Assembly (NCBI RefSeq): GCF_003334765.1
Contig: NZ_QOWT01000119.1
Strand: one strand, 5' to 3'
Length of the DNA stretch: 490 bases
Source: Escherichia coli
GTDB lineage: Bacteria > Pseudomonadota > Gammaproteobacteria > Enterobacterales > Enterobacteriaceae
Of this stretch, positions 1 to 490 are shown one piece after another; the first letter of the stretch is position 1, and each line of letters opens with the position of its first letter. Made by a program: the position numbers and the translations under genes. The notes under the pieces are model-generated. The model was not told where the DNA came from and did not search any database. It saw only the letters and a list, made by a program, of their open reading frames with translations.

Positions 1-210
1 TGTCCTGAATGCTTTAAGCGTAGCGACTCTGTTCATAGTTGTCGTCGGCGCCGGATACAGCATCTACCCTGCTCAGGGCAGACGCTATGGCTTGTATTTT
101 CCGTCCGCCACTGGTACTGCCGTAACCCGGCTTGTTCACGTAAAATTTTTGCCGAGTCGCTTGCTCCCTTCGCCAGTTCACACCAGCAGTCTTCACAGGC
201 GTTACAAAAT

Positions 211-213
211 TAA
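211..213 (+). other. In-frame ochre stop (TAA) between the zinc-finger-coding and HTH/DDE-coding parts of the transposase frame
   Basis: Read directly from the sequence: codons ...caa aat TAA caa cgt caa..., all in frame 1, with conserved transposase motifs on both sides. Confidence 0.9.
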
Positions 214-259
214 CAACGTCAACTGGGATTAATAGCTGGAGGTGAGGCTGGAAAACGGG

Positions 260-287
260 CTGCAACGGCAGTGGGTCTCCGTTGCAG
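260..287. repeat. Perfect 9-bp inverted repeat ctgcaacgg (260-268) / ccgttgcag (279-287) with a 10-nt spacer; potential hairpin
   Basis: Read directly from the sequence. It lies inside the coding region for the HTH-like segment (AATAVGLRC). No T-tract follows, so it is not an intrinsic terminator. Confidence 0.55.
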
Positions 288-490
288 TGCTGATACTCTT
301 CTTCGCAGGCTTATCAATACCCCGGAGACGAAACAGTCAGGCGCGCCTCATGTCGGTATTGATGAGTGGGCGTGGCATCGGGGCCACTGCTGCGGTATGT
401 TAATAGTCAATCCTGATACTCACCGTCCCCTCGTCCTGCTTCCCGGCCGTGATCAGCGTACGCTGGCGACCTGGTTCAGAAAATATCCGG

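What the first reader, a model, noticed from the sequence alone, without database searches (positions are those of the whole stretch)
211..213. ISL3 transposase split by a single in-frame TAA between its DNA-binding and catalytic parts
Conserved ISL3 motifs sit in the same frame on both sides of the stop (zinc-finger block upstream; HTH and GIDEWAWHRGH...LLPGR block downstream). The only visible defect is one nonsense codon, with no frameshift or deletion, which suggests a recently inactivated IS copy. An intact upstream part could in principle yield a truncated zinc-finger peptide of about 100 aa that binds the IS ends without catalysing transposition, by analogy with truncated transposase derivatives such as IS1 InsA or IS911 OrfA; that is inference only. 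Reinitiation after the stop looks unlikely: an SD-like GGAGGTG at 238-244 is not followed by a frame-1 start codon at proper spacing (nearest is GTG at 271-273, too far).
Basis: partly seen in the sequence, partly recalled or inferred. Interest (0 to 1): 0.5.

Follow-up and report, generated by a model that had tools for sequence, protein, structure and literature searches.

The report
Old dead ISL3 transposase pseudogene
The stop codon is real, but it is a later, lineage-specific hit in a long-dead, immobile ISEc38-like insertion-sequence fossil at a fixed place in the E. coli chromosome that RefSeq already annotates as a pseudogene, so it is ordinary.

Summary
The in-frame TAA at 211-213 is real. 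It is codon 113 of a 539-codon ISL3-family (ISEc38-like) transposase gene. ISL3 homology runs in the same frame on both sides: Zn_ribbon_ISL3 upstream, the start of DDE_Tnp_ISL3 downstream, and collinear NF033550 matches.

The window is 100% identical to a chromosomal E. coli locus that RefSeq/PGAP already labels "ISL3 family transposase, pseudogene, internal stop". Intact ISEc38-family copies have TTA (Leu) at this codon.

The "single, recent inactivation" reading fails:
- Every chromosomal copy sampled at this fixed locus (a CP4-44-type island near cobU) that still covers codon 460 shares a second stop there, outside the window. That stop removes the conserved C-terminal motif expected to hold the catalytic Glu.
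- The right inverted repeat is degraded.
- Different lineages then picked up different N-terminal stops: codon 113 (964 of 5426 complete genomes), codon 88 (830), codon 66 (470), or none.
- dN/dS among the chromosomal copies is relaxed.

So TAA113 is a secondary, probably neutral hit in an already dead IS fossil. It is not a sequencing error. A regulatory 112-aa zinc-ribbon peptide is neither supported nor strictly excluded. This is known and ordinary, of low interest.

The parts
1..490 (+). Internal segment (codons 43-205 of 539) of a chromosomal ISEc38-like ISL3-family transposase pseudogene
Evidence: 96.3% identical to an intact ISEc38-family gene. The full conceptual translation scores 345 bits on NF033550, cut-off 180.
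1..126 (+). Zinc-ribbon (Zn_ribbon_ISL3) coding part; its first residues lie just upstream of the window
   Evidence: Pfam PF14690, E=2.1e-7, on residues 1-42 of the upstream fragment. Residues 40-84 in the intact protein.
211..213 (+). TAA nonsense codon (codon 113). It is TTA (Leu) in intact copies and in most other chromosomal alleles.
   Evidence: The TAA allele is in 964 of 5426 complete E. coli genomes and the TTA allele in 2320.
214..351 (+). Linker or presumed HTH region between the zinc ribbon and the DDE domain
   Evidence: Collinear with NF033550 profile positions 81 to about 127. No Pfam HTH_Tnp_ISL3 hit here.
238..244 (+). GGAGGTG, an SD-like string inside the coding sequence. No start codon follows at SD spacing (the nearest frame-1 GTG is at 271-273), so it is probably incidental.
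   Evidence: It encodes G-G-E in the conserved frame and is kept in the intact copy.
352..483 (+). N-terminal part of the DDE_Tnp_ISL3 catalytic domain, including the GIDEWAW motif. The GAT at 361-363 is the presumed first catalytic Asp (inference).
   Evidence: Pfam PF01610 model positions 1-46, E=1.5e-5. Residues 160-295 in the intact protein, E=1.9e-18.

Best explanation
The window lies inside a fossil copy of an ISEc38-like ISL3-family insertion sequence. The copy is fixed at one chromosomal site in E. coli: a CP4-44-type integrative island between the zinc-ribbon/inovirus-Gp2 genes and a ggt fragment, php and cobU.

The copy was already non-functional before the TAA arose. A stop at codon 460 is shared by every sampled chromosomal allele that still covers that codon. 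It cuts off the C-terminal 80 residues, which carry the conserved S/N-G-x-x-E-G-x-N-x-x-K motif expected to hold the catalytic Glu. That assignment is an inference from knowledge of the ISL3 family. The right terminal inverted repeat has also decayed.

The TAA at codon 113 is a later single T->A transversion (TTA->TAA). It became fixed in one large set of E. coli lineages, while other lineages acquired different stops (TGA at codon 66, TAA at codon 88) or none. It is most likely a neutral secondary lesion of pseudogene decay, with no function and no mechanism of its own.
For: Identity and annotation: (100% match; PGAP marks it pseudo, 'internal stop').

Same neighbours in six further chromosomes (the left-hand neighbours in all; the ggt/php side is replaced by IS elements in H10407, strain 1223 and E. 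coli B).

Stops by allele:
- L001: 113 + 460
- L003: 460 only
- L004: 88 + 460
- L005 and L006: 66 + 460
- L007 and L012: 113, then cut by IS30 or IS2 respectively
- Intact copies L002 and L010: none

Population counts, using 55-nt queries centred on the variant base so that every 28-nt megablast seed must contain it:
- TAA113: 964 genomes (966 chromosomal places, 1 plasmid)
- TTA113: 2320
- TAA460: 2637
- CAA460: 678, many of them on plasmids
- TGA66: 470
- TAA88: 830

Relaxed constraint: dN/dS is 0.5-2.2 among chromosomal alleles, against 0.25-0.32 for each of them versus the intact copy.

IR decay: the left IR matches the active IRL at 43 of 45 positions, but the right IR matches the active IRR at only 33-35 of 45. 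IRL versus IRR is 34-36 of 45 within the fossil, against 44 of 45 in the active copy.

Other dead copies elsewhere carry scattered stops and frameshifts, so decay of this IS is commonplace.
Against: The order of events (460 first, 113 later) is inferred from allele sharing in 7 sequenced loci plus allele counts. It was not mapped on a core-genome tree, and recombination between alleles is evident (L007 is mosaic).

The three secondary stops at this locus all fall in codons <=113. By chance that has P of about 0.013-0.019, so a non-neutral cause is not fully excluded.

Loss of function from truncation at codon 460 is inferred, not tested.
Confidence: 0.92

Rival explanations
1. A recently inactivated IS copy whose sole lesion is this TAA, and whose intact upstream part makes a zinc-ribbon peptide of about 112 aa. 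The peptide binds ISEc38 ends and damps transposition in trans, in the manner of IS1 InsA or IS911 OrfA.
For: The N-terminal ORF (codons 1-112) is intact and contains the whole Zn_ribbon_ISL3 domain. At least 63 genomes carry both a TAA and a TTA copy (964 + 2320 - 3221), so a trans target can co-exist.
Against: There is a second stop at codon 460 and a degraded right IR. The locus is fixed and the allele is present in 964 genomes. Functional copies encode Leu here, so the truncation is not a designed product. Sister lineages truncate at codon 66, inside the zinc ribbon (residues 40-84), or at codon 88, just past it, so no particular peptide is conserved. The consensus scan found no sigma-70-like promoter. 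In the ISL3 profile, the stretch after the stop would be needed for a complete DNA-binding region.
Confidence: 0.03
2. Selected silencing. The 459-aa product left by the older stop (DNA-binding but catalytically dead) was harmful or interfered with something. Early nonsense mutations at codons 66, 88 and 113 were therefore each favoured and swept in different lineages.
For: All three secondary stops lie in the first 113 of 539 codons. P is about 0.013-0.019 given the distribution of nonsense opportunities. Each allele is frequent: 470, 830 and 964 genomes.
Against: The test is post hoc and has n=3. Allele frequencies follow clonal structure, not necessarily selection. About 370 genomes with TAA460 (2637 minus 2264) carry none of the three stops, for example L003. 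Dead copies at other loci have stops at 329, 263 and 269 and frameshifts spread along the gene. There is no evidence of expression.
Confidence: 0.04
3. Sequencing or assembly error, or programmed recoding (readthrough) of the TAA.
For: None beyond the bare fact of a single-base difference from intact copies.
Against: The same base is found in 964 independent complete assemblies. A downstream stop at codon 460 would make readthrough pointless. Rfam finds no RNA element in the window.
Confidence: 0.01

Closest known systems
ISEc38 (ISL3 family), as labelled by NCBI PGAP 'ISL3-like element ISEc38 family transposase', e.g. WP_074477982.1 on plasmid p720632_94
   Same: The ORF has the same length (539 codons) and architecture: Zn ribbon at 40-84, DDE_Tnp_ISL3 split by an HTH insert, and terminal IRs of about 45 nt. 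Nucleotide identity is 96.3% in the window and 95.0% over the ORF.
   Different: The window copy has stops at codons 113 and 460, 41 non-synonymous differences and a decayed right IR. It sits at one fixed chromosomal site rather than at variable plasmid or chromosomal sites. It was not compared with the ISfinder reference sequence itself.
IS1 InsA / IS911 OrfA-type truncated transposase regulators
   Same: An N-terminal DNA-binding portion of a transposase could in principle be made without the catalytic domain.
   Different: In those systems every functional copy encodes the short protein, and the full transposase needs a programmed -1 frameshift (established knowledge). Here functional copies have a sense codon, both parts are in the same frame, and the truncation is a lineage-specific mutation in a dead copy.
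Other decayed IS remnants in E. coli cryptic prophages and islands (CP4-44 region of K-12: yeeH, yoeG, yoeH, yoeA::IS2)
   Same: The same genomic neighbourhood (next to cobU and yeeX/tmaR-yeeA) and the same pattern of nested IS hits and pseudogenes.
   Different: K-12 MG1655 has lost this ISL3 remnant altogether. E. coli B keeps only about the first 127 codons, including TAA113, cut by IS2.

Membership tests
ISL3-family transposase gene (as a pseudogene) | Match to NCBIfam NF033550 (transpos_ISL3) above the curated cut-off of 180 bits | tested here: met
   The full conceptual translation with stops written as X scores 345.1 bits, E=4.6e-103, profile 1-368 of 370. The intact relative scores 376.3 bits. 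The two window fragments score 60.5 and 79.8 bits and are collinear (profile 13-77 and 81-172).
ISL3-family transposase gene (as a pseudogene) | N-terminal zinc ribbon (Pfam Zn_ribbon_ISL3, PF14690) | tested here: met
   E=2.1e-7 on the window's upstream fragment. E=1.8e-6 on the intact relative, residues 40-84.
ISL3-family transposase gene (as a pseudogene) | DDE_Tnp_ISL3 catalytic domain (PF01610) | tested here: met
   Window downstream fragment: E=1.5e-5, model 1-46. Intact relative: 160-295 (E=1.9e-18) and 413-534 (E=1.5e-13).
ISL3-family transposase gene (as a pseudogene) | HTH_Tnp_ISL3 (PF13542) between the zinc ribbon and the DDE domain | tested here: not met
   No hit at residues 85-160 at E<=10. 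The only hit is a weak one (E=0.059) at 302-331, inside the insert. The region is nevertheless covered by the NF033550 alignment.
ISL3-family insertion sequence (as a mobile element) | Matching terminal inverted repeats | tested here: inconclusive
   The active copy has IRs of about 45-50 nt matching at 44 of 45. In the window's element IRL and IRR match at only 34-36 of 45, and the right end is 33-35 of 45 identical to the active IRR. The IRs are recognisable but degraded.
ISL3-family insertion sequence (as a mobile element) | 8-bp target-site duplication flanking the IRs | tested here: not met
   No matching direct repeat is visible next to the IR ends in L001 or L003-L005. That is expected for an old copy, but it also means the boundaries are approximate.
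ISL3-family insertion sequence (as a mobile element) | Intact transposase ORF | tested here: not met
   Stops at codons 113 and 460.
ISEc38 (named IS) | High identity to the ISfinder reference sequence of ISEc38 | not testable with these tools
   Only a comparison with PGAP-labelled 'ISEc38 family' copies was possible: 96.3% nt in the window and 95.0% over the ORF.
Programmed truncated-transposase regulator (IS1 InsA / IS911 OrfA type) | The short product is encoded by functional copies of the element | tested here: not met
   Intact copies L002 and L010 have TTA and no stop. Of 967 places with the TAA allele, 966 are chromosomal. The sampled ones lie at the fossil locus, and the single plasmid place carries the same island context.
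Programmed truncated-transposase regulator (IS1 InsA / IS911 OrfA type) | Two overlapping frames joined by a programmed frameshift | tested here: not met
   Both parts are in the same frame, with no indel relative to the intact gene.
Programmed truncated-transposase regulator (IS1 InsA / IS911 OrfA type) | The short product binds the IS ends and represses transposition | not testable with these tools
   This needs EMSA and transposition assays.

The most novel reading that the evidence does not exclude
The repeated, independent early truncations of this fossil transposase (codons 66, 88 and 113 in different E. coli lineages, all on the TAA460 background) are not neutral. One possibility is that the catalytically dead 459-aa DNA-binding product was counter-selected. 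Another is that the short zinc-ribbon peptide left in TAA113 strains is expressed and acts in trans on incoming ISEc38 copies, making it a domesticated IS-derived transposition inhibitor.
Probability: 0.05. Interest if true: 0.45.

Novelty: already known. Interest (0 to 1): 0.07.

Why it matters
It matters little. This is a routine, already annotated IS pseudogene. The useful result is negative: the stop is neither a fresh inactivation nor a designed regulator.

There is some minor practical value. The mutually exclusive stop alleles (codons 66, 88, 113, or none) at a fixed locus are convenient lineage markers in E. coli. They also show that reports of 'ISEc38' from automated mobile-element callers may often reflect this immobile fossil rather than an active element.

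Tried and rejected
- K-12 MG1655 CP4-44 region. The element is absent and only IS2 matches, so there is no K-12 gene name for it.
- Rfam on the window at E<=1: nothing.
- Consensus promoter/terminator scan over the whole element: no sigma-70-like promoter and one chance-level terminator. There is therefore no support for expression of the N-terminal ORF, though this is a weak test.
- Other ORFs in the window: only short out-of-frame or antisense ORFs of 32-83 aa with TTG/GTG starts. I took these as chance.
- Literature search for ISEc38: 28 papers. The 15 listed are genome surveys of resistance and mobile elements, judging by title and abstract start, and none has ISEc38 in its title or abstract. 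I opened none.
- PDB sequence search with the intact transposase. No solved ISL3 transposase was found. Only the inserted HTH matches IS21-family IstA (IS5376, entries 8q4d and 8b4h).
- Target-site duplication: none recognisable.
- Sequencing error: rejected on the allele count.
The nearest frame-1 start, GTG at 271-273, begins 26 nt after the SD-like string ends at 244.
- Co-occurrence of dead and intact copies from the codon-460 counts. I considered it and dropped it, because truncated copies and clonal structure make the overlap estimate unreliable.

Full report
**Observation**

The window has TAA at 211-213 in frame 1, and it is the only stop in that frame.

The 70 residues upstream hit Pfam Zn_ribbon_ISL3 (E=2.1e-7). 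The 92 residues downstream hit the first 46 positions of DDE_Tnp_ISL3 (E=1.5e-5).

Against NCBIfam NF033550 (ISL3 family transposase) the two fragments align to profile positions 13-77 and 81-172 (E=1.5e-16 and 2e-22). They are therefore collinear across the stop.

The SD-like GGAGGTG (238-244) and the frame-1 GTG (271-273) are as described.

The Pfam HTH_Tnp_ISL3 model does not match the stretch after the stop. That part of the description rests only on the collinear NF033550 match.

**What the sequence is**

The window is 100% identical to a chromosomal segment found in many complete E. coli genomes. In total 3221 of 5426 complete genomes have a match, with a median of one copy.

In NZ_CP033378 it lies inside a 1620-nt CDS that PGAP marks as 'ISL3 family transposase', pseudo, 'internal stop'. 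Window base 1 is the first base of codon 43, and the TAA is codon 113 of 539.

An intact relative is the 'ISL3-like element ISEc38 family transposase' WP_074477982.1 on plasmid p720632_94.
- It is 96.3% identical in the window, with no indel.
- It has TTA (Leu) where the window has TAA.
- Over the whole ORF there are 81 differences in 1620 nt.

In the intact protein the zinc ribbon is residues 40-84. The DDE domain is split into 160-295 and 413-534 by an inserted HTH.

**Why the 'single recent lesion' reading fails**

The full gene has a second stop at codon 460 (TAA, where intact copies have CAA), outside the window.

I fetched six further chromosomal copies at the same locus. All have the same left-hand neighbours: inovirus-Gp2-family gene and two zinc-ribbon genes, then the ISL3 pseudogene. 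Where the right-hand side is intact it continues with a ggt fragment, php and a DMT transporter. Where IS elements have removed that side, cobU lies close by. This is the equivalent of the K-12 CP4-44 island, between yeeA/tmaR and cobU.

All copies that still include codon 460 carry the TAA there. They differ in their N-terminal lesions:

| Locus | Strain | Stops |
|---|---|---|
| L001 | L73 | 113 + 460 |
| L007 | 1223 | 113, then cut by IS30 |
| L012 | E. coli B | 113, then cut by IS2 |
| L004 | ABU 83972 | 88 + 460 |
| L005 | 13P484A | 66 + 460 |
| L006 | H10407 | 66 + 460 |
| L003 | ECONIH4 | 460 only |

I then counted alleles with 55-nt queries centred on the variable base, so that every 28-nt megablast seed has to contain that base.

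| Allele | Complete genomes (of 5426) | Note |
|---|---|---|
| TAA113 | 964 | 966 chromosomal places, 1 plasmid |
| TTA113 | 2320 | |
| TAA460 | 2637 | |
| CAA460 | 678 | about a quarter of places on plasmids, i.e. the mobile population |
| TGA66 | 470 | |
| TAA88 | 830 | |

The one plasmid carrying TAA113 holds the whole island context, so it is a captured chromosomal segment.

The simplest history is as follows. The copy inserted once and lost function (TAA460). It was then inherited vertically. Separate lineages later picked up separate nonsense mutations, and the window's TAA is one of them.

Supporting signs of decay:
- dN/dS among the chromosomal alleles is 0.5-2.2. For each of them against the intact copy it is 0.25-0.32 (the counts are small).
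- The left IR is still 43 of 45 identical to the active IRL. The right IR is only 33-35 of 45 identical to the active IRR. IRL and IRR pair at 34-36 of 45 in the fossil, against 44 of 45 in the active element.
- No target-site duplication is recognisable.

The 80 residues removed by TAA460 include the conserved ...S-x-G-V-V-E-G-H-V-N-R-L-K... block. In ISL3 transposases this block is expected to carry the catalytic Glu. That assignment comes from family knowledge and was not tested here.

**Sequencing error**

This is excluded by the 964 independent complete assemblies with the same base.

**The regulator idea**

The N-terminal 112-codon ORF is intact and holds the zinc ribbon. Nothing points to a function, however.
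- Functional copies do not encode a short product.
- There is no frameshift arrangement of the IS1 or IS911 kind.
- Sister lineages truncate at codon 66, inside the zinc ribbon, or at codon 88, just after it.
- No sigma-70-like promoter is found by a consensus scan (a weak test).
- There is too little variation in codons 1-112 to test for purifying selection.

One oddity remains. The three secondary stops at this locus all lie within codons 66-113. Given the distribution of one-step-to-stop opportunities, that has a probability of about 0.013-0.019. The test is post hoc with n=3. Dead copies at other loci have lesions spread along the gene: stops at 67 and 329 plus two frameshifts in L009, and stops at 19, 263 and 269 plus several indels in L011. 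I treat it as a weak lead, not a finding.

**Comparison with what is known, and verdict**

This is a member of the ISL3 family at the gene level: NF033550 at 345 bits against a cut-off of 180, with the zinc ribbon and the DDE domain both present. It is an ISEc38-like element by similarity to PGAP-labelled copies.

As a mobile element it fails the tests of an intact ORF and matched IRs. It does not meet the defining features of programmed truncated-transposase regulators.

It is already annotated as a pseudogene with an internal stop in RefSeq. Novelty: already known. Interest: low.

Noticed in passing
L002:3760-4110 (codons ~296-412 of the intact ISEc38-family transposase; outside the window): The ISEc38-family transposase (539 aa) is about 100 aa longer than the ISL3 profile, because a domain is inserted inside DDE_Tnp_ISL3 (Pfam hits 160-295 and 413-534). 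The insert matches the N-terminal HTH region of IS21-family IstA: NF033546 E=1.6e-16, residues 303-398; PDB 8q4d/8b4h IS5376 transposase E~1e-10, residues 302-398. It looks like an IS21-type DNA-binding module sitting within an ISL3 catalytic core.
   Followed up: partly
L001:5875-7494 and the same locus in L003-L007 and L012 (window codons 66, 88 and 113 = window bases 70-72, 136-138 and 211-213): Three different secondary nonsense alleles (TGA66, TAA88, TAA113) are each present in hundreds of complete E. coli genomes (470, 830 and 964), on the shared TAA460 background. All three lie in the first 113 codons (P about 0.013-0.019, post hoc). They could serve as lineage markers. Weak clustering is unexplained.
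   Followed up: partly
L001:7502-7546 (right end of the element): The right inverted repeat of the chromosomal copy differs from the active ISEc38-family IRR at 10-12 of 45 positions (about 24%). The ORF differs by only 5% and the left IR by 2 of 45. The right end may derive from a more distant relative or have been rearranged, rather than simply drifting.
   Followed up: no
L001:5875-6210 versus L002:2875-3210 (codons 1-112): Synonymous divergence from the intact plasmid copy is much lower in codons 1-112 (dS 0.027) than downstream (0.116-0.18). L007 carries TAA113 joined to an ISEc38-like downstream stretch. Both suggest mosaicism, or gene conversion between the fossil and mobile copies.
   Followed up: no
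L012:3191-3567 (E. coli B) and L008 (K-12 MG1655, 2,066,020-2,078,748): E. coli B retains only about the first 127 codons of the pseudogene, with TAA113, cut by IS2 next to a yoeA-like TonB-receptor fragment. K-12 MG1655 has lost the ISL3 remnant from CP4-44 entirely.
   Followed up: yes
L013 (plasmid pARG01, NZ_CP049937.1, 112242-120731): One IncF plasmid carries the TAA113 copy together with its chromosomal island neighbours (AlpA, inovirus Gp2, the two zinc-ribbon genes, php). Either a piece of the CP4-44-type island was captured on a conjugative plasmid, or this is an assembly artefact.
   Followed up: no
L009:4845-5055 and L010:5196-6084: Two other ISEc38-like copies, one dead (L009) and one intact (L010), each have a fragmented 'TOTE conflict system archaeo-eukaryotic primase domain' gene a few hundred bases downstream, followed by YagK/YfjJ- or inovirus-Gp2-type genes. 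This suggests a second recurrent island context for this IS.
   Followed up: no
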